64,000 nucleotides of DNA, taken from a virus (Duplodnaviria > Caudoviricetes). The notes under the pieces were generated by a model, which did not search any database, was not told the origin of the DNA, and was given only the letters and a program-made list of their open reading frames with translations. Within the stretch, counting starts at the first letter, position 1, and the number at the start of each line of letters is the position of its first letter. Below, piece after piece: positions 1 through 17,994 of the stretch. Where the stretch lies: the IMG/VR virus record IMGVR_UViG_3300028048_000038, positions 1-64,000 of that record; one strand, 5' to 3'. Position numbers and translations under genes: made by a program.

Positions 1-819
1 TAATTCAGATGTGCCATTGTTCAATATCTGTATTGTTGCACCCACCAAATCTGCGTCAGCTCCATTCTGCTGAGATAAGTTTATAATGACTGTTTCCTTT
101 AATGTAGATACACTACCTCCCCCTAGACTTGATACAACATAGTGTGTTCCATCGTATCCAAAGAGCACCGTATCACCACTTGAGATAACATCGTCCTCGA
201 TTGGTGCTCCCTTATGATAAATTGCCTTCGCACCTTGATTGTTGACATTGAGGGTTGACCCAGATGGTACATCATTTTCGAATGTGACAGACACGAATCC
301 GTTTTTAACCAACACGTAGTCAGCCAACACCACTTCCTTCGCAAGTGTCTCAGCAGATGTTGAACATACACCAACACCGTTTCCAATCGGTGCTTGGTCA
401 TCAATTATGTCTTGTTTCTCATCAACTAACGCATTGACCTCTGCCTTTGTATAGGCATCAACAGTCAATGGGTCAACTGACTCGTCAATCCAAATTTCTA
501 TGGTATCTCCAGTTGGTGTGTCTCCGCTTGTAACTTCCACTTCCTCACCCACTTGAAGATTTTCAAGCGCTTCCGTTACAGTTGTTGCACTGTTTTCCCC
601 AGTGAACCCACTACCTAGTTTCTGTTCGGTATAATACTTGTCTGATGAGAATGTAACAATGTCATCATTTGAGTTCTTAAGTGATATTGTCTCAACGTTT
701 TCAGCATAGTTAATTGCCAATTCTCCCTCAACCAAAGCAGATGATTGTGGTAGCTTTGGTTTTCCTTCTACAACGACATTGCTTTTAATGTGTTGTATAT
801 GATTAACATTTTTTGTCAT
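1..819 (-). CDS. Tail fibre/receptor-binding protein, constant N-terminal module 1 fused to a variable cassette (runs off window start)
   Basis: Not in ORF track. Hand translation from ATG at 819 is open to base 1: MTKNVNHIQHIKSN...GNGVGVCSTSAETLAKEV...FGYDGTHYVVSSLGGGSVSTLKETVIINLSQQ. Near-identical block to 2553..3929. Confidence 0.75.
   Translation of the reverse strand, partial: MTKNVNHIQHIKSNVVVEGKPKLPQSSALVEGELAINYAENVETISLKNSNDDIVTFSSDKYYTEQKLGSGFTGENSATTVTEALENLQVGEEVEVTSGDTPTGDTIEIWIDESVDPLTVDAYTKAEVNALVDEKQDIIDDQAPIGNGVGVCSTSAETLAKEVVLADYVLVKNGFVSVTFENDVPSGSTLNVNNQGAKAIYHKGAPIEDDVISSGDTVLFGYDGTHYVVSSLGGGSVSTLKETVIINLSQQNGADADLVGATIQILNNGTSEL
112..127 (-). repeat. Putative recombination site A1 (TCTAGGGGGAGGTAGT), in frame as S-L-G-G-G-S
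   Basis: One of 7 copies in alternating orientation. Confidence 0.85.
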
Positions 820-931
820 AATATTAAAATTATTATTTTTTTTAATAGAGTTTTATTTTTTACTTAGAAATATAGATTCCAAAAATTGATAAGAATATCA
901 GCGTTTTTTTAATTAAAAATCTATTTTAATA

Positions 932-940
932 ATAAATATC
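932..940 (-). promoter_or_regulatory. Putative phage late promoter (GATATTTAT)
   Basis: TATTTAT core recurs upstream of minus-strand virion-type genes at 932, 4057, 7237, 12179, 15398, 23102. Confidence 0.45.
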
Positions 941-977
941 TTTTTGTTGTTTAAAACTATGGCATTTAACATATTAA

Positions 978-1040
978 ATTGCATTTGACTTGTGCAATAA
1001 TTGTGTGCAGTATATTGCACAATTTCTGCACACAATTAAC
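978..1040. repeat. TGTGCA/TGCACA direct+inverted repeat cluster
   Basis: ttgtgcaataattgtgtgcag...ttgcacaatttctgcacacaatt; sister cluster at 4110-4160. Confidence 0.65.
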
Positions 1041-1095
1041 AATTATAAGATTGTCACCCACCCATTTATAGGGAATATGAATATTTCCCATTTTT

Positions 1096-1113
1096 GTTCT
1101 AGGGGGAGGTAGT
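1096..1113 (+). repeat. Putative recombination site A2 (GTTCTAGGGGGAGGTAGT)
   Basis: Inverted relative to A1; heads cassette 1114..1962 in the LGGGS frame. Confidence 0.85.
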
Positions 1114-1962
1114 ATGGATTTCAATGAGACTGTTAACATAAGTATTTCTCAACTAGGTGGTAATGATTCTGATTTAATAGGTGCTACTGTCACTATTACT
1201 GAACAGCCTAATGGTAATATAATTTATTCAACAACATGGAACGGCTCAACAATTTCTATTAAAATACCAACCTCAACTAATTATAAAATCTCTGTAAGTA
1301 GTATAAACGGATATATAACACCTAAATCTAAAATTTTTACATCAGGATTCCTAAATAGGAATGTAATTCTAACATATGGTATAACAACATCAAGTTATAT
1401 AATAGATAATTCTTATGTACTATATGATGCGACAACATATCAAACAGCCAAAGACGTAGGAATGGTTAGTGATAATGACGTTTTAGGTATATTGGTAAGT
1501 TCTTCTTCTTATAGGTTTATTTTAGGTAAAGAAAATCTAGGAAGTTATTGTACAGGTAATGGAGTTGGGGCTTCATCTAGTAGATTGCCAGCATTAACAG
1601 AAGCTAATGCATTGGCTGATTATGGAGGTAAAAACAACTCAAATATATTAATTGCTGAATATGGATATACTCCTACCACAATGTACGCAGCTCTAGTTTG
1701 TTTTGACTATAAATTTGCAAATGATGAAAGAGGTTATGAACCTTCATTAGGCGAATGTACTATGATATATAACGATAAAACTAGGATTAATGCGTTATTA
1801 AATGTATGTAATGAAGATGCGTTGCCTAGCGCCTTGTCATCTAGTTCTTATTATGGTAATTATGGCGCTTCATGTTCATTCTGGGCTAAAGTCATGAGTA
1901 ATGGCGCACAAGGACCAAGTTGGAGTGCTAATCCTGTATATCCTTGTTGTTCATACGAATAA
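1114..1962 (+). CDS. Silent variable tail-fibre cassette (stalk + DUF1566/C-type-lectin-like tip)
   Basis: Begins at site A2; ETVNISISQLGGNDSDLIGATVTIT stalk shared by all cassettes; tip motif GYEPSLGE...YNDKTRINALL. Confidence 0.75.
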   Translation: MDFNETVNISISQLGGNDSDLIGATVTITEQPNGNIIYSTTWNGSTISIKIPTSTNYKISVSSINGYITPKSKIFTSGFLNRNVILTYGITTSSYIIDNSYVLYDATTYQTAKDVGMVSDNDVLGILVSSSSYRFILGKENLGSYCTGNGVGASSSRLPALTEANALADYGGKNNSNILIAEYGYTPTTMYAALVCFDYKFANDERGYEPSLGECTMIYNDKTRINALLNVCNEDALPSALSSSSYYGNYGASCSFWAKVMSNGAQGPSWSANPVYPCCSYE

Positions 1963-1968
1963 CTACTT

Positions 1969-2003
1969 AGTTCTGAATGGACTAGTGCAGGAAAAACAGC
2001 AAA
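1969..2003 (+). repeat. Site B1, 35-bp perfect inverted repeat with 3142-3176
   Basis: AGTTCTGAATGGACTAGTGCAGGAAAAACAGCAAA. Confidence 0.85.
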
Positions 2004-2520
2004 CTCAATAGTCGTAATTTCAGATGCTCATTCATATAGAGTATCTGTAAAAGGTCAAAAGAATGGTATTAAAAACAACAGCAACGATACTACTAATCCA
2101 GGAATGCCAGCGATATCTGATACACGCAATTATTTTAATGGAAAGGCAGATACACAAAAGGTATTAGCATGGAATACATCATGTGGGGCTACCGACATTA
2201 ATACATATGCAGCACCTTATTGTAATAGCTATATTTTTCCAGACGGTGTAACAAGAGGCTTCTTAATGTCTAGTGGAGAGTTATGGTTTTTGTATAACAA
2301 TAAACAACAGATAGAAGCATGTCTAACTGCTTGTGGTGGCGATGCATTTGATACCACTCGTTATACTGTTACATCTACATTTACTGGAATGTGGAGTGGG
2401 TCATTCCCTTGCTTTGATGAAATGAATTGGGGAAATGGCGGTTGGTACTCGACTAATCATGCTGACACATGGTCAAACTGTAGTACGAGACCAATAGGCG
2501 AATATACTCTACAAAAATAA
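1969..2520 (+). CDS. Tip-only silent cassette (no start codon of its own)
   Basis: Frame open from 1969 (SSEWTSAGKTANSIVVIS) into ORF 2104..2520; AAPYCNSYIFPDGVTRGFLMSSGEL...RPI. Confidence 0.7.
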   Translation, partial: SSEWTSAGKTANSIVVISDAHSYRVSVKGQKNGIKNNSNDTTNPGMPAISDTRNYFNGKADTQKVLAWNTSCGATDINTYAAPYCNSYIFPDGVTRGFLMSSGELWFLYNNKQQIEACLTACGGDAFDTTRYTVTSTFTGMWSGSFPCFDEMNWGNGGWYSTNHADTWSNCSTRPIGEYTLQK

Positions 2521-2555
2521 AGGGGTGAGAAATAATCTCACTCCTTTTTGTTTTA
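2514..2555. terminator. Bidirectional intrinsic terminator
   Basis: aaaggggtgaga-aataa-tctcactccttttt between convergent cassettes. Confidence 0.75.
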
Positions 2556-3929
2556 ATAATGCGCAATAGGTCTTGCGTATGATTTAACAGAATACATTCT
2601 ATTTGCATCTTGGAACGTTCCATTACGTTGTGTTGCTGTATAAGAGTTTTGTGCTTTATTTCCAGCATTCCACCCACAAGTAGAGGTTGCAGTTCCAGCC
2701 GATGCAGTAGTATCCCAAATAGTCAATACTGTACCACCACAAACAGTTAAGCATGCATCTATAGCTTCTTTATTCACAAATATACATGCAATCTCATACA
2801 TACCACCTAAATAACCTCGTGTTACACCATCTGGAAAAATATAACTGTTACAATATCCAGCTAGATATGAAGTACTTGGTTCAATTCCAATTATAGTGTT
2901 GGTGTAACTCTCTCCGTCTTTAAGTCCATGTGAAGTATTAGCTGCATCAGTAGTAGCAACTACATATGAGAAAGTTTTTCCGTTAAATGGTGAGTCAGTA
3001 CCATTAATAGTATAAGTACCAAGGGCACTTGCTATTGCAACATTTTTATTATCATCATCTGGGTTGCAAAAATTAAGAGTTGTTGGAGATTGTGTAAGTG
3101 CTACTCTGCATTGGTATTTTTCCATAATTAGGACAACACTATTTGCTGTTTTTCCTGCACTAGTCCATTCAGAACTTCTATAAAGAGTTCCATCTGTGGC
3201 TTCAACATACGCACCAACTCCAGTATATTTGAAATTGATGCCAAGTATACGTCCAGGCTTAGATATATATTGTTGTTCTGAAGGCGTTATATATCCACTA
3301 ACTGAGCCAACTACTATTTTATAGTTTGTTACGGCTTCAATTTCATATTCAAGCGTGTCTCCTTGCCATGTGGTAGATAACAATGTGGTTGAAGTATCAA
3401 GGTCAGTTATTGTAATTGTTGCGTCTATAAGGTCTTCATTATATCCACCAATTTGTTCAAGATTTATTTCAACAATTTCACTTAAGTTAATACTACCTCC
3501 CCCTAGAGAGGATACAACATAATGAGAACCATCATAACCGAACATGACGGTATCACCACTTGAGATAACATCGTCCTCGATTGGTGCTCCCTTATGATAT
3601 ATTGGTTTCGCTCCTTGGTTATTGATATTAAGTGTAGCCCCAGATGGAACATCGTTTTCAAACGTGATTGACACAAAACCATTCTGAGTTATCTTATATC
3701 CTTCAATATCTACTTCCTTTGCTATTGTTTCAGCAGAGGTTTCACATGTCCCAACACCATTTCCCATTGATTCTGGTGTTATATCTTCAATGATTTCTGT
3801 AACTGCGCTTTGTGACATAACATCGGCACTAGACGTGCCTGTTGTTTGAACGACATTTACCTCATTGACCATTACTTGGTTGAGCAAATGCCATTCCCCA
3901 TCTTTACCTTTATATTTAATTCCAGGCAT
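2553..3929 (-). CDS. Tail fibre/receptor-binding protein, constant module 2 + currently joined cassette
   Basis: 458 aa; VVQTTGTSSADVMSQSAVT fibre motif, SSLGGGS junction, stalk, lectin-like tip. Confidence 0.8.
   Translation of the reverse strand: MPGIKYKGKDGEWHLLNQVMVNEVNVVQTTGTSSADVMSQSAVTEIIEDITPESMGNGVGTCETSAETIAKEVDIEGYKITQNGFVSITFENDVPSGATLNINNQGAKPIYHKGAPIEDDVISSGDTVMFGYDGSHYVVSSLGGGSINLSEIVEINLEQIGGYNEDLIDATITITDLDTSTTLLSTTWQGDTLEYEIEAVTNYKIVVGSVSGYITPSEQQYISKPGRILGINFKYTGVGAYVEATDGTLYRSSEWTSAGKTANSVVLIMEKYQCRVALTQSPTTLNFCNPDDDNKNVAIASALGTYTINGTDSPFNGKTFSYVVATTDAANTSHGLKDGESYTNTIIGIEPSTSYLAGYCNSYIFPDGVTRGYLGGMYEIACIFVNKEAIDACLTVCGGTVLTIWDTTASAGTATSTCGWNAGNKAQNSYTATQRNGTFQDANRMYSVKSYARPIAHY
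3142..3176 (-). repeat. Site B2 (inverted copy of B1), inside the full-length gene
   Basis: Exact reverse complement of 1969-2003. Confidence 0.85.
3492..3507 (-). repeat. Putative recombination site A3
   Basis: actacctccccctaga, in frame in 2553..3929. Confidence 0.85.
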
Positions 3930-4109
3930 AATATTTATATTTTATTTTTTAATAATTATTTATTTTCCTTTTATATGGTTATTGAACCGAATAATTGACA
4001 AGCATGTCAGCGTTATAAAGATTGTATAAATAATCCCATAATAATTATTCTTTTTTATAAATATCACGTTACTGTTATATTTTTGTTTTTTAATGGGTTA
4101 AAAGTGAAT

Positions 4110-4160
4110 AAATTGTGCAAAAATTGTGCAATGTAATGCACACAAATAATGCACAATTTT
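4110..4160. repeat. TGTGCA/TGCACA repeat cluster
   Basis: aattgtgcaaaaattgtgcaa...tgcacacaaataatgcacaatt. Confidence 0.65.
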
Positions 4161-4207
4161 CATATATAACATTGAAAAAGACCTTTTAGGAAAAGGGGAG
4201 GAGATGT

Positions 4208-5083
4208 ATGCTTGTTTCCGTTCTAGGGGGAGGTAGTACATCTAGGGGTGTTGAAACACTAGTCATTAATGTGATTACACAAGGAGATAGTTCTGAAACG
4301 TTAGGTGCTACTATTACAGTGACAAACAATGACACTAGTTCTGTTATAAGCGCAACAACATGGCAAGGGATACAGATAACGATTGAAGTGCCACAGTATT
4401 GTAATTACACTATCACATTAGGTAATGTTGCTGGTTACTCAACCCCGCAAGCACAAACATACCATTCAAGTCCTAACTTTGTAAGGAATACGGCATTTAC
4501 ATACATTGGAACTGGTGCATATATTGAGTCCACTGATGGTATACTATATACTGCCTCGAATTGGTCATCAGCAGGAAAAACAGCAAATTCTGTTGTCTTA
4601 TTAACAAGTAACAAACAATTCAGAATAGCCTTGCCACAATTTGGACCGTTTACAAGTTATGACCCAGAAAACCAATCTGTTAGACAAATTGGGTCAAACA
4701 AATCAGAAAGTTCTGTAAAAGCAGACTTCAACGGAGAGCAATATACTACAAAAATGAGAACACAAGGTTATGCTCCAATTCCAGATAATGACAGTTATGC
4801 ATTCTCAAAGGCTTGGAGATACACATTCCCAAATGGAAGAAACACAGGATTCCTTCCCTCAATGGGTTATCTGTGGCTGATGTATCAGAATAAAACCGCT
4901 ATTGCTAATTGTATGTCTGCTGCTGGAGGTTCTATTAGTGGAGTTTTGATGTCTGCAAATTTTGCGCATGCTGAAGTTGAAAATTGGGAATTCCAATGGT
5001 TATTTAATTGGGATAGCGGAGCTTCTACTATGTCTATACAAGGTACATCTCATTATTGTAAACCAATTTCAAATTATAAATAA
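4208..5083 (+). CDS. Variable tail-fibre cassette
   Basis: VLGGGS at start, stalk, AYIESTDGILYTASNWSSAGKTANSVVL, GFLPSMGYLWLMYQNK tip. Confidence 0.75.
   Translation: MLVSVLGGGSTSRGVETLVINVITQGDSSETLGATITVTNNDTSSVISATTWQGIQITIEVPQYCNYTITLGNVAGYSTPQAQTYHSSPNFVRNTAFTYIGTGAYIESTDGILYTASNWSSAGKTANSVVLLTSNKQFRIALPQFGPFTSYDPENQSVRQIGSNKSESSVKADFNGEQYTTKMRTQGYAPIPDNDSYAFSKAWRYTFPNGRNTGFLPSMGYLWLMYQNKTAIANCMSAAGGSISGVLMSANFAHAEVENWEFQWLFNWDSGASTMSIQGTSHYCKPISNYK
4220..4237 (+). repeat. Putative recombination site A4
   Basis: gttctagggggaggtagt. Confidence 0.85.
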
Positions 5084-5112
5084 GTTCTAGTTGTTGTTCT
5101 ATACTAAAAATA

Positions 5113-5150
5113 ATAAAGGGTAAGATTCAACGTCTTACCCCTTATTTTTT
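5113..5150. terminator. Bidirectional intrinsic terminator
   Basis: aaagggtaaga-ttcaacg-tcttaccccttatttttt. Confidence 0.7.
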
Positions 5151-5688
5151 AAGTTTTTAATACCTCTTCATATGGTTTCCAATCTATACTATCTTTCTTT
5201 TGCCAACCTTCATTAAGACATTTATTTATATAAGCAAAAGCTTTAGTATAAAAGTCACTAATATCTTCTAAAGTTTCAAAAGTATGATATATTGGTTCTC
5301 CGCCTTGTTCTTTACCTTCTTCATCATAAGTCTTAGGTGTTTGTCCAATCTTAAATGTTACAGGTAAAGAAGCACCATTAGTTTGAAGTGCTAAATCATA
5401 AGCAGCTTTAAAATTAAACTGATTTTCAGTAGATAACCAAACTGGAATATTATTCCAAATAAAGCCATCTATTATAGTAGAAGTTGTCCTATTATCTATA
5501 TCATCTATAATAGCATTTTTCACATCTTGAAATGAAATATAACTCTTCTGCTTCTTGTAAAAGTATAATTCATACCAAGTAGCATTTACGTCATCTCCAA
5601 CTTCTTGATAGCCATAACTAACAATCCATCTAATAGTATCCTCTTTAACAAGGATATAGTCTGATATAATTCCAAATACTTTATTCAT
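5149..5688 (-). CDS. DUF4376-like tail fibre assembly chaperone
   Basis: GFIWNNIPVWLSTENQFNFKAAYDLA...LPVTFKIG; paralog of 6617..7183; directly downstream of a fibre cassette. Confidence 0.65.
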   Translation of the reverse strand: MNKVFGIISDYILVKEDTIRWIVSYGYQEVGDDVNATWYELYFYKKQKSYISFQDVKNAIIDDIDNRTTSTIIDGFIWNNIPVWLSTENQFNFKAAYDLALQTNGASLPVTFKIGQTPKTYDEEGKEQGGEPIYHTFETLEDISDFYTKAFAYINKCLNEGWQKKDSIDWKPYEEVLKT

Positions 5689-5701
5689 AATACTTTCATT
5701 T

Positions 5702-6547
5702 TTATTTCATAATGGCACGCATTGGCAATCCAACGCATCTATCATAGTTAGCGCCAAGACCACCGCCGTTAGCATCAAAATAATACCCATTATTTGGCGT
5801 TGACGTGTAAAATGTAGCTGTCCAAACTTCTGGATATGAACCTTCTCCACTTATTTCAGAACTCATGTAATACCTGCCAGCTCTGGGGAAGAATATAAAA
5901 ACATTGCTATCAGACTTATTCTTATATTTTACACCTGACACACCGTTGATTGTCGCATTTTCTTTATTTGTATAGTTTACAAGTTCAGTAAATTCTTCAT
6001 TAGTAGGTGTTCTCCAACTTTTCCCCATATTCACTGTTGCAGCATCATAAGTGCCTGTAATATTTCCACTCAGTGATGAACCTGTTGTATTGTTATAGTT
6101 ACTCCTATCAAAACTATAACCACTTCCCTTGGCATGACCTTCTGTATTTCCCCATGAAAAATATAATCCGTAACCCTCTGGTGTTGATGCCCCAACATTA
6201 CGTGTACACCACATATTTCCACTGGGAAGCCCTAAGTCAACAACATAACCAAGATATAAGAAGTTGACAATTCTTGACACTCCAGAAACTGCTGTATAAG
6301 AACAACTGGTTTGTTCTATATAATAGTCATTGACATTTCCGACGTTTACTGTGTAATTAACTCCATCGTTTACTTGAATAGCAATAACACTACCATCCCA
6401 TGTAGTAGAAAGAATAGTTTCAGAAGTATCATCGTTTGTAACTACTACTGCTGTTCCAATCAAAGCAGAGTCACTACCGCCACTTTGTGTAAGCTGGATA
6501 GTTACAAATTCAGGCCATACAATAGTTCCGCTACCTCCCCCTAGAAC
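5702..6547 (-). CDS. Variable cassette with a different tip family (VDLGLPSG-type DUF1566/Fib_succ_major-like)
   Basis: Starts at site A5; VDLGLPSGNMWCTRNVGA...YFSWG...DAATVNMGKSWRTPT...GLPMRAI. Confidence 0.75.
   Translation of the reverse strand, partial: VLGGGSGTIVWPEFVTIQLTQSGGSDSALIGTAVVVTNDDTSETILSTTWDGSVIAIQVNDGVNYTVNVGNVNDYYIEQTSCSYTAVSGVSRIVNFLYLGYVVDLGLPSGNMWCTRNVGASTPEGYGLYFSWGNTEGHAKGSGYSFDRSNYNNTTGSSLSGNITGTYDAATVNMGKSWRTPTNEEFTELVNYTNKENATINGVSGVKYKNKSDSNVFIFFPRAGRYYMSSEISGEGSYPEVWTATFYTSTPNNGYYFDANGGGLGANYDRCVGLPMRAIMK
6531..6547 (-). repeat. Putative recombination site A5
   Basis: ctacctccccctagaac, immediately downstream of a terminator. Confidence 0.85.
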
Positions 6548-6578
6548 AAAAAAAGAGCAACCCATCATAGGTTGCTCC
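6548..6578 (-). terminator. Intrinsic terminator silencing cassette 5702..6547
   Basis: gagcaacc...ggttgctc stem with T7 tail on minus strand. Confidence 0.7.
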
Positions 6579-6616
6579 ATTATAATATTTTGGCAAAATA
6601 TCTCTTTCAAGTCATT

Positions 6617-7183
6617 TTATTCTGTATACAATGACCAATCGAATGCTTCCTTCTTCTCCCATCCGTCCTTATAGGTATCAGATATATACTTAATTGCAGA
6701 TGTATAGAAATCCTCCAATTCCTCAAAGGTCTTGAACTCATAATAGATTGGTGTTGTATCTGTTCCGAACTTGAACGTTACTGGCAAGTTCTTCCCCTCA
6801 CTCTGAACTGCAAGGTCATATTCAGCCTTATAGTTGAACTGATTCTCAGTTGACAACCATACATTCATATCATTCCACACGAAACCATTCAATATCTTCT
6901 GGTCAATCTCTGGATTATACCAATCAGAAATCAGTTTCCTCATTGCAGCTTCGGTTCTTTCACCTCTAAAATAGGTTACAAGCACGTTGCAATAATCGGT
7001 ATCCTCATATCCAATGATGATTGGATTGCCCTTATCATCGACAACAATGTTTCCATCCTTATCCTTCTCATAGATTGGGTTGGTAACGTCTTCAGTCTTA
7101 AACATCAACTTGCTTCTCTGTTCGTTGATTATCGTTACTGGCTGATAATCAGCCTTCAATATCATTTCTTTAATTATTCCCAT
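6617..7183 (-). CDS. DUF4376-like tail fibre assembly chaperone
   Basis: GFVWNDMNVWLSTENQFNYKAEYDLA; start placed at MGIIKEM (7183). Confidence 0.65.
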   Translation of the reverse strand: MGIIKEMILKADYQPVTIINEQRSKLMFKTEDVTNPIYEKDKDGNIVVDDKGNPIIIGYEDTDYCNVLVTYFRGERTEAAMRKLISDWYNPEIDQKILNGFVWNDMNVWLSTENQFNYKAEYDLAVQSEGKNLPVTFKFGTDTTPIYYEFKTFEELEDFYTSAIKYISDTYKDGWEKKEAFDWSLYTE

Positions 7184-7291
7184 AATATTATCTGTATGAT
7201 TTTTTTTATTAATTCTTATTTTTTTTAATCTTATCAATAAATATCAGATGGTAGGGAAAAATGTGTTGTTACGGCAATATAATTTTAAAAA

Positions 7292-7309
7292 GTTCTAGGG
7301 GGAGGTAGT
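7292..7309 (+). repeat. Putative recombination site A6
   Basis: gttctagggggaggtagt. Confidence 0.85.
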
Positions 7310-8167
7310 ATTGATTTAAGCGAGACTGTGAATATAACATTGACTCAAGTTAGGGGATATGATGCTGACATAATTGGGGCAACAGTGACGGTTACAGACC
7401 TTGATACTTCAACTGTGTTATTATCTACCACATGGCAAGGAAATGCCATCACGTTAGACATTGAGGCTGTTACCAACTATAAGGTTGAGGTTGGAAGCGT
7501 TGTGGGTTATATAACTCCTTCTAGCCAACAATATATATCAAAGCCTAGCAGAGAACTTAACATAACATTTCAATATGGTGCATTGGGTGTTTATATTGAA
7601 GCAATTGATGGCACATTGTACACTAGTTCTAGTTGGAGTAGTGCTAGTAAAACACCCAACTCTGTTGTTCTGCTTACGGATAATGTTAAAAGAAGAATAG
7701 CATTAGTGCAGTATCAAGCTCCTTGGTTAGATGGAGACCACACAGAATTATTTAATGTTGTTCCAGCAAGCAATGATTTGCTAGATGCATATGATAGAAA
7801 TGCCACGCTAGTTACTTGGTTTAAGAATAAAGGGTTTTATAACAGCAATTATGCTATTCCATTGGCGAATAAATATATCTTCCCAGATGGGGTAACAAAG
7901 GGATATTTACCTGGCTATCTAGAAATACAAGTTTTATATGATAATAAAACTGAAATAAACGCTTGTTTTACTGCGTTATCTTCTCAAGCTACTCCATTTA
8001 TTAATACTTCTGAAGCTTTTAAAGCAGCTTATTGGACTTGTGAAATATCTACCGCTTGGACTTTTACCGTTTGGAGATATTCTTGGTATTGTGGACATGA
8101 GGGAAACGACCTTTCTCACGAAACTGATAATATATATATTAGACCAATAGCACATTATGAGGTATAA
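7292..8167 (+). CDS. Variable tail-fibre cassette
   Basis: Frame open from A6 (VLGGGSIDLSETVNITLTQ) into ORF 7328..8167; stalk close to that of 2553..3929. Confidence 0.75.
   Translation, partial: VLGGGSIDLSETVNITLTQVRGYDADIIGATVTVTDLDTSTVLLSTTWQGNAITLDIEAVTNYKVEVGSVVGYITPSSQQYISKPSRELNITFQYGALGVYIEAIDGTLYTSSSWSSASKTPNSVVLLTDNVKRRIALVQYQAPWLDGDHTELFNVVPASNDLLDAYDRNATLVTWFKNKGFYNSNYAIPLANKYIFPDGVTKGYLPGYLEIQVLYDNKTEINACFTALSSQATPFINTSEAFKAAYWTCEISTAWTFTVWRYSWYCGHEGNDLSHETDNIYIRPIAHYEV
7627..7654 (+). repeat. Site B3, 28-bp perfect inverted repeat with 8744-8771
   Basis: TTCTAGTTGGAGTAGTGCTAGTAAAACA. Confidence 0.85.
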
Positions 8168-8171
8168 AATA

Positions 8172-8208
8172 CAAAAAGGGTAAGACAAATAATCTTACCC
8201 TTTATTTG
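8172..8208. terminator. Bidirectional intrinsic terminator
   Basis: aaaagggtaaga-caaataa-tcttaccctttattt. Confidence 0.7.
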
Positions 8209-8212
8209 TTAT

Positions 8213-8771
8213 TTAGTAATCAGTAACTGGAATCACAGTATATGCATTGTCCATATATGCAGCATAACCACTATATGTTCCTTTATTGTTTCCATAAATA
8301 GCTTCAAACGCATCCTTTCCACCAGGCGTTGATATAGAATATGTCGAAGTATAATATCTATTTGAGTGGTCCATACCTGGAGGTATTAATTCTGAAGCCC
8401 CACAAGCAATCATACATGCATTGAGAGAACTGTAATTGTTATTAATTAGAACTGCTTGTCCAGAAGACATTAAATATGGTGTCTTACCACCATAGGCAAA
8501 GGTATAAGCACGACAATATGGGGCAGCATAATTTGTGTTATTAATTCCTCTTGAAATACAATAAGTAATCAGATTATCAGTATCTTTTACGCCATTAAAA
8601 TATGTTAATGGAGAAGAAACTTTACCGCCCATGTATTGATACATTGTTCCAGCCGTAGGGCTTTCATTGCTTATTGGTAATTTAGTTTGTGTCAACGCCA
8701 TTCTGAAACTGCACTCATTTGAAATAAGAACTACTGAATTAGCTGTTTTACTAGCACTACTCCAACTAGAA
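8213..8771 (-). CDS. Tip-only silent cassette
   Basis: SSWSSASKTANSVVLIS...NYAAPYCRAYTF; begins at B4 directly after a terminator. Confidence 0.7.
8744..8771 (-). repeat. Site B4 (inverted copy of B3)
   Basis: Exact reverse complement of 7627-7654. Confidence 0.85.
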
Positions 8772-8775
8772 TTAA

Positions 8776-8815
8776 AATAAAAGGGTAAGACTTCGAATCT
8801 TACCCTTTTATTATT
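8776..8815. terminator. Intrinsic terminator (near copy of 5113-5150)
   Basis: aaaagggtaaga-cttcgaa-tcttaccctttt. Confidence 0.7.
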
Positions 8816-8831
8816 TTTAGTATAGAGCAAC

Positions 8832-8902
8832 AACTTGCTTCTTTGCTCGTTGATTATCGTCACTAGCTGATAGTCAGCCTTGAGAATTGTTTCCTTTATC
8901 AT
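8832..8902 (-). pseudogene. Truncated 5' remnant of DUF4376-like chaperone
   Basis: MIKETILKADYQLVTIINEQRSKL matches IIKEMILKADYQPVTIINEQRSKL of 6617..7183, then homology stops abruptly. Confidence 0.7.
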
Positions 8903-8918
8903 AATTTCTATTTTTATA

Positions 8919-9764
8919 TTAATATGGTGCTGCTACTCTCGGTTGATAACCTCTTTCAGTAAATACTTCTGAAGTCATAATATTATTAACATCTACAAAT
9001 GATGTAGCATTATAAAGTGTAGAAGTCTTCCAATAGTAATCATACATTGCTGTACCGCCACAAGCAGTCAGACATTCACTTATAGCAGTTTTATTTTGTT
9101 TTACAACTACCGTCTGCCAACTTGAAAGCAACATACCTTTTGTTATACCATCAGCGAAAGTAATAGACCTACAATAAGGTGCTATATAATTTGTATTATT
9201 TGTTCCATAAGTATCATTAAACAAAATAAGTTTATCTGTATTCCCCTCTCCATCATAATCTTCTGACCTTCCCTTCATAGGTAAATAAGCTGATATTGGG
9301 TCAGTATTATTACTATGATATGGTTTATCTACAGCATCTATAGAAGGATGTAATCTGAATTGTGTTTTCTCTGCTATAACTACAATTGCATTCACAGTTT
9401 TTCCAGCAGAAGACCATTGCTCTTTTGTGTACAACTGATGGTCAGTTGATTCAATATAAATACCTAATGTGCCATATTGAAACGACAAATTTCTTGTTTT
9501 GCCAATCCCAGCCACATAGGAGTAGCTGTTTATTGAAACTTTGTAACCTGTAACACTTCCTACTTCAACTTTATATGACGTACTTGTTGGTATATTATAA
9601 GTGACAGTAGTTCCATTCCATGTTGTACTATAGAGGGTTTCTTGGCTTTCTACATCAGTAATTGTAATAGTTGTTCCAATCAAATCTGTATCATAGCCCC
9701 TTACTTGTGTCAATGTTACATTAACTGTTTCATACAATTCCACATCTCCACCTCCCCCTAGAAC
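8919..9764 (-). CDS. Variable tail-fibre cassette
   Basis: Frame open from A7 (VLGGGGDVELYETVNVTLTQ) through ORF 8919..9743. Confidence 0.75.
   Translation of the reverse strand, partial: VLGGGGDVELYETVNVTLTQVRGYDTDLIGTTITITDVESQETLYSTTWNGTTVTYNIPTSTSYKVEVGSVTGYKVSINSYSYVAGIGKTRNLSFQYGTLGIYIESTDHQLYTKEQWSSAGKTVNAIVVIAEKTQFRLHPSIDAVDKPYHSNNTDPISAYLPMKGRSEDYDGEGNTDKLILFNDTYGTNNTNYIAPYCRSITFADGITKGMLLSSWQTVVVKQNKTAISECLTACGGTAMYDYYWKTSTLYNATSFVDVNNIMTSEVFTERGYQPRVAAPY
9748..9764 (-). repeat. Putative recombination site A7 (GTTCTAGGGGGAGGTGG)
   Basis: ccacctccccctagaac; terminator immediately upstream. Confidence 0.8.
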
Positions 9765-9765
9765 A

Positions 9766-9798
9766 AATAAAAAAGGACAACCATTTCTGATTGTCCTT
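9766..9798 (-). terminator. Terminator of 775-aa gene
   Basis: aaggacaa...ttgtcctt stem with T tail on minus strand. Confidence 0.65.
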
Positions 9799-9816
9799 CA
9801 TAAAATTTTATCTCAT

Positions 9817-12144
9817 TTATCCTTCACTGTCGAAGAAACGTCCCATAGAGTGCAATATATCGGTATCATATACCTCATGAGCAAGCATTCCAAGAAGCTT
9901 GTTAATGTTCATATAGTCACCTTCAATCCACATATATACGCTGCCATCCTCCATCACCTCAAGGGCATTGCTCCTATTGGCGTTGCTAGTTCCATTACCG
10001 ATTGAGAATACAGTGTTTCCAGAAGCATCCTCACTTGTGTGACTTGCATTATAAGTACCGAATGCAACCTCATTCTCATGCTTCTTCTCAAGGGTCTCGT
10101 TATCAGCATATCCAAGCTTCTGTAGAAGAGCATTAAATACGGTCAAATCAGTCTTTCTCTCATCAAGAGACTCAACCTCAACGTTAAGGGTTTGTATACC
10201 CTCTGTGTTTGCACTGACTTGTTCTGCAAGCGCATCAAACTCGCCCTTGTCTGCCTTCTCGTCAAGAAGTGCGTCAGTTTCTTCCTTCGTATAATAGTTT
10301 GACAAGTCAATCAACTCACCCACTGGGAATTCAACCGTCTTCTCACCCTCTGGCGTGAAATACGTGATTATAATCTTCTCGTCCTCAACCTTAATCTCCT
10401 TGATTGAACCACCTGTTTCAACAAACTCATGGAACTCTCTATGAAGTACGTCAAGGATACCATTTCCACTATTGTCATACTCTGCTGGGTCATCACCATC
10501 CCACGCTGTTATCGTGTTGATTCTGTTGGCATTATGGTCAATTTCATATGTATTTGCTGATATTGCACTTGTATTTGCCCTTACAGCAACCCATAGTCCG
10601 CTTTCTGCTTGTTCAGCACGCTCTCTCTCTTCAGTTGCAGCATCTGCGATTTCAGTCTCAAGTTCTGCCTTAAGCTCATTTCTAGAGTTGTCAACATATG
10701 TCACATCAGCCTTTGCTGTAAGTTTTCTGTCAACGTCCTCGAATTCGCTCTCAATATCGCCTCTAAGCTCTGCAATCTTGTCATCCGTATAGGTTTCAGC
10801 CTCAGTTACAGCTTGTCTTGCCTTGTTAGTGCCATAGTTCTTTGCAGCCCATATGGTGTCCTTGGTAACATCGTCATCCTCATGACCAATCAAGTCAAGG
10901 TCTGCTTGTGTTCTGTCAGCAATCTCTTGCGCAAGACCACTCTCAAGTGCGGCAATCTTATTGTCATGGATTACATCCTTCTCCTTAAGTGCGTCAATGT
11001 CATCACCAATGCCATCAATCTCAGCTTGTAGAGCATTGTCACCATTTATTCTATCGGCAATCTCTTGGTCAAGTCTGTTATTTGTCTCATTAACTGAATC
11101 AATGACTTGTGTTAGTGCCGTGTTGTCAGCCTTCTTCTCGTCCATGTCATTGAATTGGTCTGCCACAGCATTCTTATACTCATTGAATTCAGACTCGTCA
11201 ACCTTATTCTCTATCTTTTCCTCAAGGACTTCAACTCTATCCTCAAGGGCATCCAAATCCTCTTGGTTTGCCTTCTTTGCAACTTCTTCCTCAAGAGCGT
11301 CTATATCAGCCTCATTCTGTGTTGTTCTTTCATCCAATGAGATTACATCTCCACTGATGGTATTGACCTTTGTGGTGATATCACCAGAGAACTCATTGAG
11401 TTCTGTTTCCAATGCATCTATCTTTGAGTTGGTTTCATCCTTAAATGCATTGAGGTCTTCCACTGTCTCATCAACGAGGTTGGATAGTTCATCGAATGAT
11501 TCCTTCTTTGCGTATCTCTCATCACCTTCTTCAACGTTGAAATATCCTTGTTCTTCAACCCATTCCTTTGTTGCATAGTCACAGAGTTTGCTATCCAATA
11601 TACCATCTATCTCGCATTTTGAGTAAGTGTCTTCTTTTTTTGCAAATGTCCTATCTGCATAGCCACTGTATTCATTGACCATGTGTTTAGCCTCTGCGAT
11701 ACCTTCAAGGGTTTCTGCACTGAGAGTCTCGACCTTTCCAGATAATTCATTGACATCATGTCTTAAGTCATCCACAACACATTCTAGAGAGCCAACTGTT
11801 GCGATTGTATCGTTCAATCCTTCTGTGATTGCGCTAAGTTGCTCTCCATATTCGTTGTCGATTTCTTTCAATGTGTTGATATCAGAATTGATATTATCAA
11901 ACTGTTCAACCACCATGTTATTGAACTCAGTTTGGGCTGAGATAAGTGTCTCAACTGTGCCGCTAAGTTCATCTAGGTCTTTTTTATCTGCCTTTTTATT
12001 ATTGAGGCAATCGATTTCGCTATCTTGCTCTTTGTTTTTCTTTATGATTTCAGACAAGTCAGCACTAGAGTTAATGTCGCTAGTGTATCTATTTTGGTCT
12101 GGGAAACCATAGAACTCCAAATGTCTTATAAATTGTTTTGCCAT
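9817..12144 (-). CDS. Long acidic coiled-coil fibre/virion protein
   Basis: 775 aa, heptad-like acidic repeats, YYTKEETDALL and FSIGNGTSNANRSNALEV fibre-type motifs. Confidence 0.6.
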   Translation of the reverse strand: MAKQFIRHLEFYGFPDQNRYTSDINSSADLSEIIKKNKEQDSEIDCLNNKKADKKDLDELSGTVETLISAQTEFNNMVVEQFDNINSDINTLKEIDNEYGEQLSAITEGLNDTIATVGSLECVVDDLRHDVNELSGKVETLSAETLEGIAEAKHMVNEYSGYADRTFAKKEDTYSKCEIDGILDSKLCDYATKEWVEEQGYFNVEEGDERYAKKESFDELSNLVDETVEDLNAFKDETNSKIDALETELNEFSGDITTKVNTISGDVISLDERTTQNEADIDALEEEVAKKANQEDLDALEDRVEVLEEKIENKVDESEFNEYKNAVADQFNDMDEKKADNTALTQVIDSVNETNNRLDQEIADRINGDNALQAEIDGIGDDIDALKEKDVIHDNKIAALESGLAQEIADRTQADLDLIGHEDDDVTKDTIWAAKNYGTNKARQAVTEAETYTDDKIAELRGDIESEFEDVDRKLTAKADVTYVDNSRNELKAELETEIADAATEERERAEQAESGLWVAVRANTSAISANTYEIDHNANRINTITAWDGDDPAEYDNSGNGILDVLHREFHEFVETGGSIKEIKVEDEKIIITYFTPEGEKTVEFPVGELIDLSNYYTKEETDALLDEKADKGEFDALAEQVSANTEGIQTLNVEVESLDERKTDLTVFNALLQKLGYADNETLEKKHENEVAFGTYNASHTSEDASGNTVFSIGNGTSNANRSNALEVMEDGSVYMWIEGDYMNINKLLGMLAHEVYDTDILHSMGRFFDSEG

Positions 12145-15555: not shown

Positions 15556-17994
15556 ATGAAAGAGATTACAACTGAGGTCGTTAACACCTTCCTTAACGGT
15601 CATGACCCAATGGAACACATTATATCCATTGAATGCGCATGGAACGAGGATAAAGTTAGCATCATCTATGTTGACAAAAACGGAATTAAAAGAGTTAAAC
15701 AAGATGATTTCAAACCATTTATATGGGTAAAACACAGTGCCGCAATCAGAATGTTCGGAGGCAATAGAACAGAACTCAGAAAACAACTCAACCTCTACGG
15801 CATCAAAATCAAAAAACTAATCACCTCAAATAATGACGGAGAAGAACACGAAAGACTAGAAAGCGGCTATAAATACCTCTTCTACGCAACAAGAAGAATG
15901 AGCAACCAAATCTTTCAAAACTTCTTCTCAAAAGCTGGAACCCCAATCCACCCAAGACAAAAGAAAGACGAGGTAAATACAAGCGGAAATAGAGAGTTTA
16001 TGGGTATTACTCCAATCGAGCAATACATGATTGCAAGCGGACGTAGACTCTTTAAAGGATATGATACCTATAACCAACTCAATCGCTTCATATTCGACTT
16101 GGAAACACAAGGTCTTAACCCCAAAATCCATAGAATTGAACAAATCGGTATACGCACCAATAAAGGATTCGAAAAAATAATAGAAGTAGAAGGTAGTACA
16201 AAGGAAGAACTAGATGCAAGCGAAATCGCTGCAATCAAGGAATTCTTGAGAATATTGGCTGAATTGAAACCAGATACAGTGGTAGGTCATAACTCAGAGA
16301 ACTTCGACTGGAACTTCTTCATCGTCCGCTGTGAACACTATGGTATAGACTTCTCAGAACTATCACTAGAATACTTCAAACACGCAATATATAAGAAGAA
16401 AAAGGCTTCAGTCCTTAAACTTGGTGGAGAGGTAGAATACTACTATCCAACAATCATGTGGGGACATAATGTTCTTGATTCACTTCATGCAGCTCGTAGA
16501 GCACAAGCAATTGACTCAAACATGAAGAAATCAAACTTGAAATATGTCACCAAATACCTTAACCTTAAGAAACAAAATAGAGTCTATGTCCCAGGTGATA
16601 AAATCACTGACACATGGAATGTAAAAGAGAAAGTATATGGACTATGCGAGGAAGACGGAGATTGGTATAGAGTGACAGATAAGAAACCATTACTAGAAGG
16701 ATATAGCCTCGTAAGTGGAAGATATATCGTTGAGCGATACCTTCTAGATGATATTTGGGAAACTGATAAAGTGGAAGATAAGCTCAATGAGTCTAACTTC
16801 CTTGTAGGTAAGATGTTACCTACCAACTTCGCTAGAACATGTACAATGGGTACAGCTGGTATTTGGAAGCTTATCATGCTTGCATGGTGTTATGAAAATA
16901 ACTTGGCAATTCCAGCAGCAGCACCAAATAAACGATTCACTGGTGGTCTTTCACGTCTTCTTAAGACAGGTTACGTTGACCGTATCGTTAAGCTTGACTT
17001 TAATAGTCTTTATCCATCGATTATATTAACTTGGCACGTTTCAACGCCAATTGATGTTATGAACGTTATGGTATCATTGCTTGAGTACATCCTCACGCAG
17101 CGAGAAAAGTATAAGGAACTTAAGGCAGAAGCTGGAGAAAGGGTTGATGAATTTAAGGAACTCCTTAAGACTGCCGAAGGTGATAATAAAGCCAAATATG
17201 AAGCTGAAGTTAAGTTTTGGAAAGCAGAAAAAAGTGGTAATGATAAGAAACAGTTGCCTTTAAAGATATTAGCCAATAGTTTCTTCGGTGGATACGGTTC
17301 ACCCAATGTCTTCCCGTTCGGGGATATTCTTGCAGCAGAAAAAACAACTTGCGTTGGTCGTATGTCTCTTAGATTAATGATTTCGCATTTCAAAAAAATA
17401 GGTTATGAACCAATCGTAGGTGATTCATTCACAGCAGACACCCCATTATTCATTAAATATGATATTAGTGGTAAGATTGACATCAAACCAATCTCAGAAC
17501 TCATAGGAGAAACAGAAGTTGACACATTAGGTAGAGAGTATGACACCTCTGAGAAGCCTTATAAAGTCCTTTGTAGGAGTGGTTGGGTCAAGCCTAAGTA
17601 CATATACCGCCATAAGACAGATAAACCGTTATATGAGGTTTCTGAGGGTAATATGAGTGTTACAGTGACCGAAGACCACAGTTTGTTTAACGAGAAACAA
17701 GAGAAGATTAAACCAAGTGAGATAAACCAAGATACAAGGTTAGAATATTATAAGAATAAATTTTGGCATAGTGAAGGTTCTCACAATATTCATGGTAGTG
17801 CCGTTACCTCTACAGCACGTATGCTTAAGAGAGGTACATTAGATAGAGTGCCAATGTTTTTATTTAATGATGTTAGTTTAGATGATATTAGGATGTTCCT
17901 CAATGAACTAGAAGGGTGGGATTATTCTAATACAAGCAAGACTTGTCAAGCTGGAATAAACTTTTTAAAAATGAAAGTATATGGTGAAAAGTAA
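15556..17994 (+). CDS. polB: Family B DNA polymerase, N-terminal part + N-intein
   Basis: Exo motifs FDLET, GHNSENFD, YLLDD; pol motifs LDFNSLYPS, KILANSFFG; motif C cut after IVGD. Confidence 0.92.
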   Translation: MKEITTEVVNTFLNGHDPMEHIISIECAWNEDKVSIIYVDKNGIKRVKQDDFKPFIWVKHSAAIRMFGGNRTELRKQLNLYGIKIKKLITSNNDGEEHERLESGYKYLFYATRRMSNQIFQNFFSKAGTPIHPRQKKDEVNTSGNREFMGITPIEQYMIASGRRLFKGYDTYNQLNRFIFDLETQGLNPKIHRIEQIGIRTNKGFEKIIEVEGSTKEELDASEIAAIKEFLRILAELKPDTVVGHNSENFDWNFFIVRCEHYGIDFSELSLEYFKHAIYKKKKASVLKLGGEVEYYYPTIMWGHNVLDSLHAARRAQAIDSNMKKSNLKYVTKYLNLKKQNRVYVPGDKITDTWNVKEKVYGLCEEDGDWYRVTDKKPLLEGYSLVSGRYIVERYLLDDIWETDKVEDKLNESNFLVGKMLPTNFARTCTMGTAGIWKLIMLAWCYENNLAIPAAAPNKRFTGGLSRLLKTGYVDRIVKLDFNSLYPSIILTWHVSTPIDVMNVMVSLLEYILTQREKYKELKAEAGERVDEFKELLKTAEGDNKAKYEAEVKFWKAEKSGNDKKQLPLKILANSFFGGYGSPNVFPFGDILAAEKTTCVGRMSLRLMISHFKKIGYEPIVGDSFTADTPLFIKYDISGKIDIKPISELIGETEVDTLGREYDTSEKPYKVLCRSGWVKPKYIYRHKTDKPLYEVSEGNMSVTVTEDHSLFNEKQEKIKPSEINQDTRLEYYKNKFWHSEGSHNIHGSAVTSTARMLKRGTLDRVPMFLFNDVSLDDIRMFLNELEGWDYSNTSKTCQAGINFLKMKVYGEK
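17425..17994 (+). mobile_element. Split intein, N-terminal half
   Basis: Block A SFTADTPLF and block B VTVTEDHSLF directly after IVGD. Confidence 0.85.

What the first reader, a model, noticed from the sequence alone, without database searches (positions are those of the whole stretch)
112..9764. Multi-cassette tail-fibre shufflon: seven TCTAGGGGGAGGT sites in strictly alternating orientation
Seen: the same core occurs at 112-127(-), 1096-1113(+), 3492-3507(-), 4220-4237(+), 6531-6547(-), 7292-7309(+) and 9748-9764(-), always read in frame as L-G-G-G. Two copies lie inside complete genes, joining a constant N-terminus to a stalk+tip. The other five head paralogous stalk+tip cassettes that lack an N-terminus, and two of these sit directly behind a terminator. 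Known: Mu gin, P1 cin and the R64 shufflon swap adhesin C-termini by inversion at in-frame sites. Inference: this is a host-range switch with at least 7 cassettes and two different expressed N-termini in a jumbo Bacteroidota phage. No recombinase is in the window.
Basis: partly seen in the sequence, partly recalled or inferred. Interest (0 to 1): 0.92.

Follow-up and report, generated by a model that had tools for sequence, protein, structure and literature searches.

The report
Two-headed, nested jumbo-phage adhesin shufflon
A ~412-kb cattle-gut phage flips DNA segments at eight identical short sites to join either of two gene beginnings to any of eight probable host-binding ends; such switches are known in small phages, but this one has two movable gene beginnings and probably a second, nested switch that swaps only the tip.

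Summary
Observation confirmed; the system is larger than the window. All seven 13-nt sites are exact, alternate in orientation and read L-G-G-G. An eighth site lies at the other end of the contig, directly behind an intact tyrosine recombinase. The contig's 127-nt 'inverted terminal repeat' starts exactly at the site, so it is an assembly break at an invertible segment. Another assembly holds the missing 3 kb with the other junction. Public assembly graphs branch at the sites, and close relatives fuse the same N-termini to other cassettes exactly at L-G-G-G. It works as a shufflon.

Differences from Min, Rin and the BV01-like shufflon: both constant N-termini sit, with their late-promoter motif, on internal invertible pieces. 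Four tip-only cassettes start at sites of the same build (AGTT + 7-mer) with other 7-mers, suggesting a nested tier; its junctions were not seen. Products model as small domain + CnaB-like Ig domain + Lcl_C/DUF1566-like lectin-type tip; virion location and host-range effect are inferred. One close relative carries a DGR target at the same site. The scan has noted jumbo-phage shufflons, some with DGRs, on other DNA.

Verdict: new variant of a known kind, interest 0.65.

The parts
1..127 (-). Start of cassette CA (stalk), currently fused to N-terminus A; the rest (291 aa in all) lies in the 3,018-nt segment missing from this contig
   Evidence: L013:3420-4988 gives the whole 522-aa gene
115..127 (-). 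Tier-1 site 1 (expression site of gene A); its first base is where the contig's 127-nt inverted end repeat begins
128..819 (-). Constant N-terminus A (231 aa); first ~60 aa resemble Mtd_N (lead only)
   Evidence: 98.7% identical N-terminus fused to an unrelated tip in P0188
931..939 (-). Late-promoter-like motif ATATTTATT upstream of gene A
   Evidence: same motif precedes capsid, sheath, tube and portal genes
990..1032 (-). TGTGCA-rich palindromic element, one of only two in the genome (one per N-terminus-bearing head segment); role unknown
1098..1110 (+). Tier-1 site 2 (silent left flank LF2)
   Evidence: graph branch at 1085-1114 in run X1 not explained by the reference
1099..1962 (+). Cassette C2, stalk+tip, 287 aa from L-G-G-G
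1969..2520 (+). Tip-only cassette c; begins at candidate tier-2 site AGTT-CTGAATG (1969-1979)
   Evidence: 35-nt exact inverted repeat with 3142-3176
2519..2547 (.). Terminator hairpin between convergent frames
2553..3507 (-). Cassette CB (317 aa), currently fused to N-terminus B; candidate tier-2 site at 3166-3176
3495..3507 (-). Tier-1 site 3 (expression site of gene B)
   Evidence: lies in the low-confidence linker (aa 142-146) between two modelled domains
3508..3929 (-). Constant N-terminus B (141 aa)
   Evidence: 97-98% identical in P0159 and P0160, whose C-termini drop to 40-56%
4056..4064 (-). Late-promoter-like motif upstream of gene B
4114..4156 (+). Second copy of the TGTGCA-rich palindromic element
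4222..4234 (+). Tier-1 site 4 (left flank LF4, which offers a 5-codon in-frame ATG leader)
   Evidence: X1 branch at 4220-4249; the ENA contig starts at 4238
4223..5083 (+). Cassette C4, 286 aa
5112..5146 (.). Bidirectional terminator
5149..5688 (-). DUF4376-like / phrog_19239 gene behind cassette C5; possible assembly chaperone (inferred)
   Evidence: E 2.4e-4, below cut-off; 3.7e-39
5702..6544 (-). Cassette C5, 280 aa, with a different (Lcl_C / Fib_succ_major-like) tip
6533..6545 (-). Tier-1 site 5, directly behind terminator 6554-6578
   Evidence: X1 branch at 6531-6560
6617..7183 (-). Second phrog_19239 gene on the third head segment, with late-promoter-like motif at 7236-7244
7294..7306 (+). 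Tier-1 site 6
   Evidence: the ENA contig ends at 7292
7295..8167 (+). Cassette C6, 290 aa; candidate tier-2 site AGTT-CTAGTTG at 7625-7635
8213..8773 (-). Tip-only cassette d; begins at AATT-CTAGTTG (8773-8763), directly behind terminator 8776-8812
8816..8902 (-). Relic of the 5' end of the phrog_19239 gene (two more relics in the missing segment)
8919..9761 (-). Cassette C7, 280 aa
9750..9762 (-). Tier-1 site 7, outer end of the system, behind terminator 9772-9799; not a break in run X1 but a contig end in X2 and X4

Best explanation
A phage-encoded tyrosine recombinase (G000 C1:408153-409409) inverts DNA between any two oppositely oriented copies of an asymmetric site. The strand-exchange core is most likely the 7-mer CTAGGGG behind a (A/G)GTT arm (inferred). 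Over 12.7 kb, four segments carrying two convergent start-less cassettes alternate with three 'head' segments whose two ends point outwards. Two heads carry a late-promoter motif and a constant N-terminus (A, B). The other flanks are a stop codon, terminators or promoter-less DNA. So exactly two of eight stalk+tip cassettes are fused to an N-terminus at any time, and both the cassettes and the heads move: 18,432 arrangements, 56 A/B pairs. The products are most likely virion adhesins (receptor-binding proteins) with a lectin-type tip, so the switch would vary which host surface is recognised. Four tip-only cassettes, each sharing a different 7-mer with an oppositely oriented cassette, probably form a nested second tier run by the same enzyme (12 tips in all). 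Shown: sites, frames, recombinase, alternative tier-1 junctions. Inferred: catalysis by this enzyme, the 7-bp core, tier 2, virion location, host-range effect.
For: Eighth site starts 2 nt after the recombinase stop. PF00589 at E 5.5e-21, the only match in the genome, with R264-K291-H360-R363-H386-Y395 present. The recombinase flank is joined to cassette CA in G000 but to cassette C0 in L013 and L044. The Logan contig L018 stops 17 nt after the recombinase stop, at the last base those two joins share. In run X1, contigs break at 1085-1114, 4220-4249 and 6531-6560; these 30-mers are unique and unbranched in the reconstructed genome, whereas its exact repeats explain seven other contig ends. Runs X2-X4, from three other studies, have contig ends at 111/119, 1098/1114, 3492/3507, 6531, 7310 and 9750/9753. 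Relatives fuse N-terminus B (97-98%) or A (98.7%) to other C-termini exactly at L-G-G-G. L051 and L052 share gene P0160 but join LF4 and cassette W to different partners; L052 has N-terminus B on two different cassettes. Four more distant recombinases (49-70%) each lie beside 4-19 copies of (mostly A/G)-G-T-T + their own C-N5-G 7-mer, and in three loci conservation ends at the 7th base. The late motif is in sense upstream of A, B and the structural genes but not upstream of silent cassettes. Model of B: CnaB-like domain 147-238 (Z 10-11) and a tip 237-458 like BACOVA_04982 (Z 13.2, rmsd 3.2, 181 aligned) and Lcl C-terminal domain (Z 9.5); atlas matches DUF1566/Lcl_C clusters at TM 0.73. In L053 the tip behind N-terminus A is a DGR target.
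Against: Only contigs, not raw reads, were available, so junction frequencies and reciprocal products were not measured. G000, L013, L018, L044 and X1 are probably one sample, so they are not independent. The assembler of G000 ran through six of seven window sites, so one arrangement dominates there. No tier-2 junction was seen; P0171 changes tip near, but not cleanly at, the motif. The tier-2 7-mer also encodes the conserved S-x-W, so its C...G shape is partly forced by coding. No Pfam, PHROG or PDB sequence match names the proteins as tail fibres. N-terminus A gave only weak fold matches (Z up to 4.1).
Confidence: 0.85

Rival explanations
1. Tier 1 is a real shufflon, but the four tip-only frames are deletion relics, or donors for homologous recombination or gene conversion, and not a second site-specific tier.
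For: Relics of another gene lie beside three of them. Two share 35-48 nt of homology with their partner. No tier-2 junction was found. None were found in the relatives' loci L029, L033, L051, L052.
Against: All four start within 4 nt of the same 7-mer position and are open to a normal tip end (163-187 aa). Each shares its 7-mer exactly with an opposite-strand partner in the same segment. The three cassettes that have partners keep AGTT before the 7-mer; the three homologous ones without partners (C0, C4, C7) have lost it. Tip a shares only 10 nt with CA, too short for homologous recombination.
Confidence: 0.4
2. The shuffled proteins are not tail receptor-binding proteins but head or sheath decoration adhesins (mucus or cell-surface tethering), or non-virion lectins; the switch then tunes retention, not host range.
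For: Globular Ig-like + lectin-like architecture with no triple helix or beta-helix. The locus is ~55 kb from the capsid and sheath genes. No tail-fibre family match.
Against: Mtd_N-like N-terminus lead (score 0.92 but 158 shared features). Domain 58-144 of B aligns to a chain of the Pa193 baseplate/tail-fibre structure (Z 8.5). DGR on the same N-terminus in a relative. Rin and BV01-like shufflons act on receptor-binding proteins (PMC6109161, PMC13596623).
Confidence: 0.3
3. The sites are only a conserved coding linker (S-L-G-G-G) in paralogous genes; the contig breaks and mosaics come from repeats, co-assembled related phages or ordinary recombination.
For: Many rumen-phage homologues have a Y-V-V-T-S-L-G-G-G linker without a known shufflon. 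Related phages are present in these metagenomes. L052's duplication may be an assembly walk.
Against: Synonymous positions are invariant in all sites, including those with non-coding left flanks. The shared stretch (13-22 nt) is shorter than the k-mer, so it cannot itself break a k=31 graph. The two recombinase-flank junctions are 100% identical to this genome on both sides. The site abuts the recombinase stop here and in L029, L033, L052 and L031.
Confidence: 0.04
4. Silent cassettes are also translated on their own (for example from ATG 1114 or the ATG leader in LF4) as head-less lectins, so the locus is a multi-gene array that happens to be invertible.
For: In-frame ATGs exist for C2 (1114), C4 (4208) and C5 (in LF5). 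The LF4 leader is kept in L051 and L052.
Against: No sense late-promoter motif upstream of any silent site. Two sites sit right behind strong terminators. C0, C6 and C7 have no in-frame ATG before the site.
Confidence: 0.1

Closest known systems
Rin shufflon of Bifidobacterium prophages (PMC6109161), also Eggerthella lenta clade 1 prophages (PMC8778435)
   Same: Phage-encoded tyrosine recombinase at one end; short asymmetric in-frame crossover sites; start-less variable C-termini of a receptor-binding protein; rearranged forms seen in sequence data.
   Different: Rin has one fixed constant N-terminus at the end opposite the recombinase and five ~100-aa tips in a small temperate phage. Here two N-termini lie on internal invertible segments, cassettes are ~290 aa two-domain units, there are 8 plus 4 tip-only ones, and the phage is a ~412-kb T4-like myovirus whose only PF00589 match is this enzyme. 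Rin lacks an arm-type domain; this enzyme has an N-terminal extension.
BV01-like Phocaeicola vulgatus phage tail-fibre shufflon (preprint PMC13596623)
   Same: Bacteroidota phage; recombinase-flanked multi-cassette inversion region overlapping a carbohydrate-binding fibre gene. Its 10-bp motif, read on the other strand, also begins AGTTC (my comparison).
   Different: 1.7 kb, three cassettes, six variants, one gene. No second N-terminus or nested tier is described in the passages read.
Min of p15B; Gin (Mu) and Cin (P1)
   Same: Inversion swaps tail-fibre C-termini at in-frame sites; Min is multi-site (PMC6109161). Co-inverted chaperone genes (Mu U/U', from my own knowledge) may correspond to the phrog_19239 genes here.
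   Different: Those use serine invertases (PMC6109161); this genome has no PF00239 match. They have one constant region.
R64/IncI shufflon (Rci, sfx sites, PilV)
   Same: Tyrosine recombinase next to the last site; several asymmetric sites whose asymmetry disfavours deletion (reference cited in PMC11850598); a 7-bp core (from my own knowledge).
   Different: Plasmid pilus adhesin with one constant pilV 5' part; unrelated site sequence.
Diversity-generating retroelements acting on C-type-lectin-fold tips
   Same: Same class of tip fold (Lcl_C/DUF1566-like); in relative L053 the tip behind N-terminus A has VR, TR and RT.
   Different: This genome has no reverse transcriptase; diversity comes from stored cassettes.

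Membership tests
Tyrosine-recombinase shufflon (Rci/Rin type) | Three or more identical short asymmetric sites in both orientations | tested here: met
   Eight exact copies, alternating, none elsewhere in the genome
Tyrosine-recombinase shufflon (Rci/Rin type) | Adjacent tyrosine recombinase with intact catalytic residues | tested here: met
   Stop codon 2 nt before the eighth site; PF00589 E 5.5e-21; R-K-H-R-H-Y present
Tyrosine-recombinase shufflon (Rci/Rin type) | Sites in frame between a constant N-terminus and alternative C-terminal cassettes | tested here: met
   All eight read L-G-G-G and open 280-317 aa; relatives show swaps at this point
Tyrosine-recombinase shufflon (Rci/Rin type) | Alternative arrangements coexist | tested here: met
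   Two junctions at the recombinase flank; unexplained graph branches at three more sites; contigs only, no read counts
Tyrosine-recombinase shufflon (Rci/Rin type) | Inversion catalysed by the adjacent enzyme, with inversion favoured over deletion | not testable with these tools
   Needs a reporter assay
Rin system in the strict sense | Single fixed constant region at the end opposite the recombinase | tested here: not met
   Two constant regions, both on internal segments bounded by sites; head B changes place and orientation in L051 and L052
Rin system in the strict sense | Recombinase without an arm-type domain | tested here: inconclusive
   PF13102 + PF00589 on this protein; full-length homologues at 41-49% carry PF17293
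Gin/Cin/Min serine invertase systems | Serine recombinase (PF00239) | tested here: not met
   No match in the genome; the 3-kb missing segment holds only cassettes
Diversity-generating retroelement | Reverse transcriptase with template and variable repeats | tested here: not met
   No PF00078 match in G000; present in relatives L053 and L022
Phage receptor-binding protein / tail fibre | Late-expressed modular protein with a ligand-binding C-terminal fold | tested here: met
   Late motif shared with structural genes; Lcl_C/DUF1566-like tip
Phage receptor-binding protein / tail fibre | N-terminal domain known to dock on the tail or baseplate | tested here: inconclusive
   Mtd_N lead 0.92 with 158 features; Z 8.5 to a Pa193 baseplate/fibre chain; weak otherwise
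Phage receptor-binding protein / tail fibre | Located on the virion and determines adsorption | not testable with these tools
   No isolate or proteome

The most novel reading that the evidence does not exclude
One phage recombinase runs a hierarchical switchboard. A common arm (AGTT) with four mutually incompatible 7-bp cores gives an outer tier that moves two promoter+N-terminus heads among eight stalk+tip cassettes, and three private inner tiers that swap only the lectin tip. The same docking site can also accept a DGR-mutagenised cassette in close relatives. I found no description of orthogonal nested tiers or of two mobile heads in a phage shufflon in the papers searched.
Probability: 0.45. 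Interest if true: 0.82.

Novelty: new variant of a known kind. Interest (0 to 1): 0.65.

Why it matters
It extends programmed receptor switching from small temperate phages to a T4-like jumbo phage of the rumen, at a larger scale: 56 pairings of two co-expressed adhesins, and 12 tips if the inner tier works. That offers a testable answer to how large gut phages keep up with phase-variable Bacteroidota surfaces. The site rule seen across five recombinase relatives (shared arm, locus-specific 7-mer) predicts natural orthogonal recombination sites, useful for understanding and for building multi-site inversion circuits. It also shows a practical trap: an active shufflon made a circular genome look like a complete linear one with inverted terminal repeats while 3 kb were missing.

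Tried and rejected
2. Pattern scans of viral and metagenome contigs returned mostly chance single hits; only L044 was this phage.
3. My recollection of a shufflon in phage crAss002 was not supported: the recombinase passages found in PMC8042965 concern the host. Dropped.
4. A loxP-like dyad reading of the site (GTTCTA, 8-bp spacer, TAGTAY) was dropped because related loci keep no right arm; conservation ends after the 7-mer.
5. A recalled link to a Bacteroides fragilis AGTTC-N5-GAACT inverted-repeat class could not be checked; not used.
6. A true inverted terminal repeat was rejected: it is exactly 127 nt, starts at the site, and L013 runs through it.
7. Searches for a tip-only cassette fused to a stalk elsewhere found nothing; weak evidence either way.
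8. Pfam, PHROG and PDB sequence searches did not name the adhesins. Fold searches of N-terminus A were weak.
9. Hairpins before LF2, LF4 and LF6 are not significant, so only two silent sites are credited with terminators.
The X1 contig end at 7156 is not explained by the reference or by a site.
11. No complex prediction was run.

Full report
Observation. The whole 409,537-nt record has one more copy, at C1:409411-409423. Each site reads L-G-G-G and opens a paralogous frame of 280-317 aa. Two are inside complete genes, A and B. Two of the others lie directly behind strong terminator hairpins.

The recombinase and the broken contig. The eighth site begins 2 nt after the stop codon of a 418-aa tyrosine recombinase. 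It is the only PF00589 match in the genome, and all six catalytic residues are present. No serine recombinase was found. The record is classed as having inverted terminal repeats, but the repeat is exactly 127 nt and starts at the first base of the site. The same cassette start (CA) therefore follows N-terminus A at the left end and the recombinase stop at the right end. A second assembly (L013, 100% identical over 4,238 + 4,573 nt) runs through this point. It supplies a 3,018-nt segment bounded by two inverted sites, in which the recombinase flank is joined to another cassette, C0. L044 shows the same join. The genome is thus a circle of about 412.3 kb, and both conformers of that segment exist.

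More junction evidence. Laying public contigs on the window, run X1 breaks at 1085-1114, 4220-4249 and 6531-6560. I built the k=31 graph of the reconstructed genome alone: its exact repeats explain seven other contig ends, but these three 30-mers are unique and unbranched, so extra joins must exist in the sample. The Logan contig with the recombinase ends 17 nt after its stop, at the last base shared by the two joins. The ENA contig starts at 4238 and ends at 7292, the edges of sites 4 and 6. These data are probably one sample. Runs X2-X4, from three other studies, hold relatives whose contigs also end at the sites. No raw reads were available, so frequencies are unknown, and one arrangement evidently dominates in the source sample.

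Relatives. P0159 and P0160 match N-terminus B at 97-98% for 141 aa and fall to 40-56% right after L-G-G-G; P0188 does the same with N-terminus A. L051 and L052 share P0160, yet join flank LF4 and cassette W to different partners. L052 has N-terminus B on two different cassettes and cassette X behind both the recombinase and B; this may be a real duplication or an assembler's walk through alternative joins. L029, L033 and L052 keep the same core right after the recombinase stop, with the same or other cassettes. The order is not fixed.

Architecture. Four segments with two convergent cassettes alternate with three head segments whose ends point outwards: 127-1098 (N-terminus A), 3507-4222 (N-terminus B) and 6545-7294 (a phrog_19239 gene). 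The outer flanks are the recombinase stop and the terminator of a 775-aa gene. A motif ATATTTAT(T/A) lies in sense upstream of the capsid, sheath, tube and portal genes and upstream of A, B and the phrog_19239 gene, but not upstream of any silent cassette. I read it as the late promoter (inference). Inversions between opposite sites keep the alternation and reach 18,432 arrangements and 56 ordered A/B pairs. Unlike Rin, Min or R64, the constant regions are themselves mobile.

Site anatomy. Recombinases at 49-70% identity lie beside their own repeated sites: CTAGGCG (L031), CTGGGCG (L022), CCCTCAG (L019) and CTCTCCG (L026), each behind TT, mostly (A/G)GTT, in 4-19 copies against at most 0.04 expected. 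The patterns were chosen after seeing the repeats, so the expectation is only indicative, and the left context was partly imposed by my search. The right edge was not imposed, and in three loci conservation ends at the 7th base. The likely core here is therefore CTAGGGG, the remaining conserved bases coding G-G-S. L022 also has two different N-termini ending at its site.

A probable second tier. Four tip-only frames exist, two in the window (1969-2520, 8773-8213) and two in the missing segment. All begin within 4 nt of the same S-x-W position and are open for 163-187 aa. Each shares a 7-mer of the same C-N5-G shape with an oppositely oriented partner in the same segment: CTAATTG (CA, a, b), CTGAATG (CB, c), CTAGTTG (C6, d). 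The three cassettes with partners have AGTT before the 7-mer; C0, C4 and C7, which have none, lack it. Different 7-mers would keep the tiers from recombining with each other (inference from tyrosine-recombinase chemistry). No tier-2 junction was observed, and coding constraint explains part of the pattern, so I put this at about even odds.

The proteins. The model of B (pLDDT 76.8) has a small beta domain (58-141), the L-G-G-G linker, a CnaB/transthyretin-like Ig domain (147-238; Z 10-11) and a tip (237-458). The tip is closest to the C-terminal domain of the Bacteroides fimbrial protein BACOVA_04982 (Z 13.2) and to Legionella Lcl-C (Z 9.5). The atlas gives DUF1566/Lcl_C clusters. N-terminus A has an Mtd_N lead but only weak fold matches. 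In L053 the tip fused to N-terminus A at this same site has a VR, a TR and an RT beside it; this genome has no RT. These points favour receptor-binding adhesins, but a position on the tail is not shown. The phage is a T4-like myovirus from bovine gut. A Bacteroidota host is inferred from the recombinase's relatives.

Comparison. Multi-cassette phage shufflons are known: Min (serine), Rin (tyrosine; PMC6109161, PMC8778435) and a three-cassette one in BV01-like Phocaeicola phages (PMC13596623). This locus works like them and meets the general shufflon criteria, but fails the single-fixed-constant-region layout of Rin. Paper searches for jumbo or rumen phages with such systems found nothing relevant, within an open-access library. 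The scan itself has noted jumbo-phage shufflons, some combined with DGRs, and a mobile promoter+front-half module on other DNA (unchecked AI notes). Verdict: new variant of a known kind; interest 0.65.

Noticed in passing
G000 ends (window 1-127 and C1:409411-409537): The record is classed as complete with inverted terminal repeats, but the repeat is an assembly break at the shufflon; about 2.8 kb of unique sequence is missing and the genome is circular-mapping.
   Followed up: yes
L053:299-4592 and 9414-10118: Close relative with N-terminus A (98.7%) fused at the same site to a DGR target; one TR (3156-3334) matches two VRs (2091-2269, 9937-10115). No recombinase within the 11 kb held downstream.
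   Followed up: partly
L022:10001-20800: Relative with the recombinase (70%), a DGR acting on the gene-A homologue, and a separate seven-site shufflon (CTGGGCG) with two different N-termini and ~80-125 aa tips.
   Followed up: partly
L025/L026, 7900-16000 in L026: Recombinase at 49% identity followed by at least 18 sites with core CTCTCCG, each heading a 50-100 aa start-less frame: a much larger shufflon of another tip type.
   Followed up: partly
L019:5000-13400: Eight sites with core CCCTCAG on both sides of the recombinase (63%), among Lcl_C-like and LRR-like frames.
   Followed up: partly
L033:627-639: In this near relative a site also lies upstream of the 731-aa gene before the recombinase, so the recombinase gene itself may sit on an invertible head segment.
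   Followed up: no
window 990-1032 and 4114-4156: A TGTGCA-rich palindrome occurs only twice in the genome, once in each N-terminus head, 65 nt upstream of the silent site. Similar elements lie in L022 and L031 and right after the recombinase in L024. Could be an accessory-protein or enhancer site.
   Followed up: partly
window 8816-8902; L013 about 4990-5070 and 6240-6290: Three relics of the first ~23 codons of the phrog_19239 gene. In run X2 a joint (3507 to 8832) puts such a relic in frame with a site; in L052 a similar join is out of frame.
   Followed up: partly
L029:11202-12312; L052:945-2172: Some relatives' cassettes have a longer stalk (369 and 408 aa), apparently a second Ig-like domain, so fibre length may also switch.
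   Followed up: no
window 15556-17994: Family B DNA polymerase frame with what looks like an intein-type insertion after the K-Q-x-x-x-K-I-L-A-N-S region (the frame changes character near 'VGDSFTADTPL').
   Followed up: no
G000 C1:73269-73976: A stand-alone Lcl_C-type gene with the late motif; its homologue in L053 is the second DGR target, but this genome has no RT.
   Followed up: no
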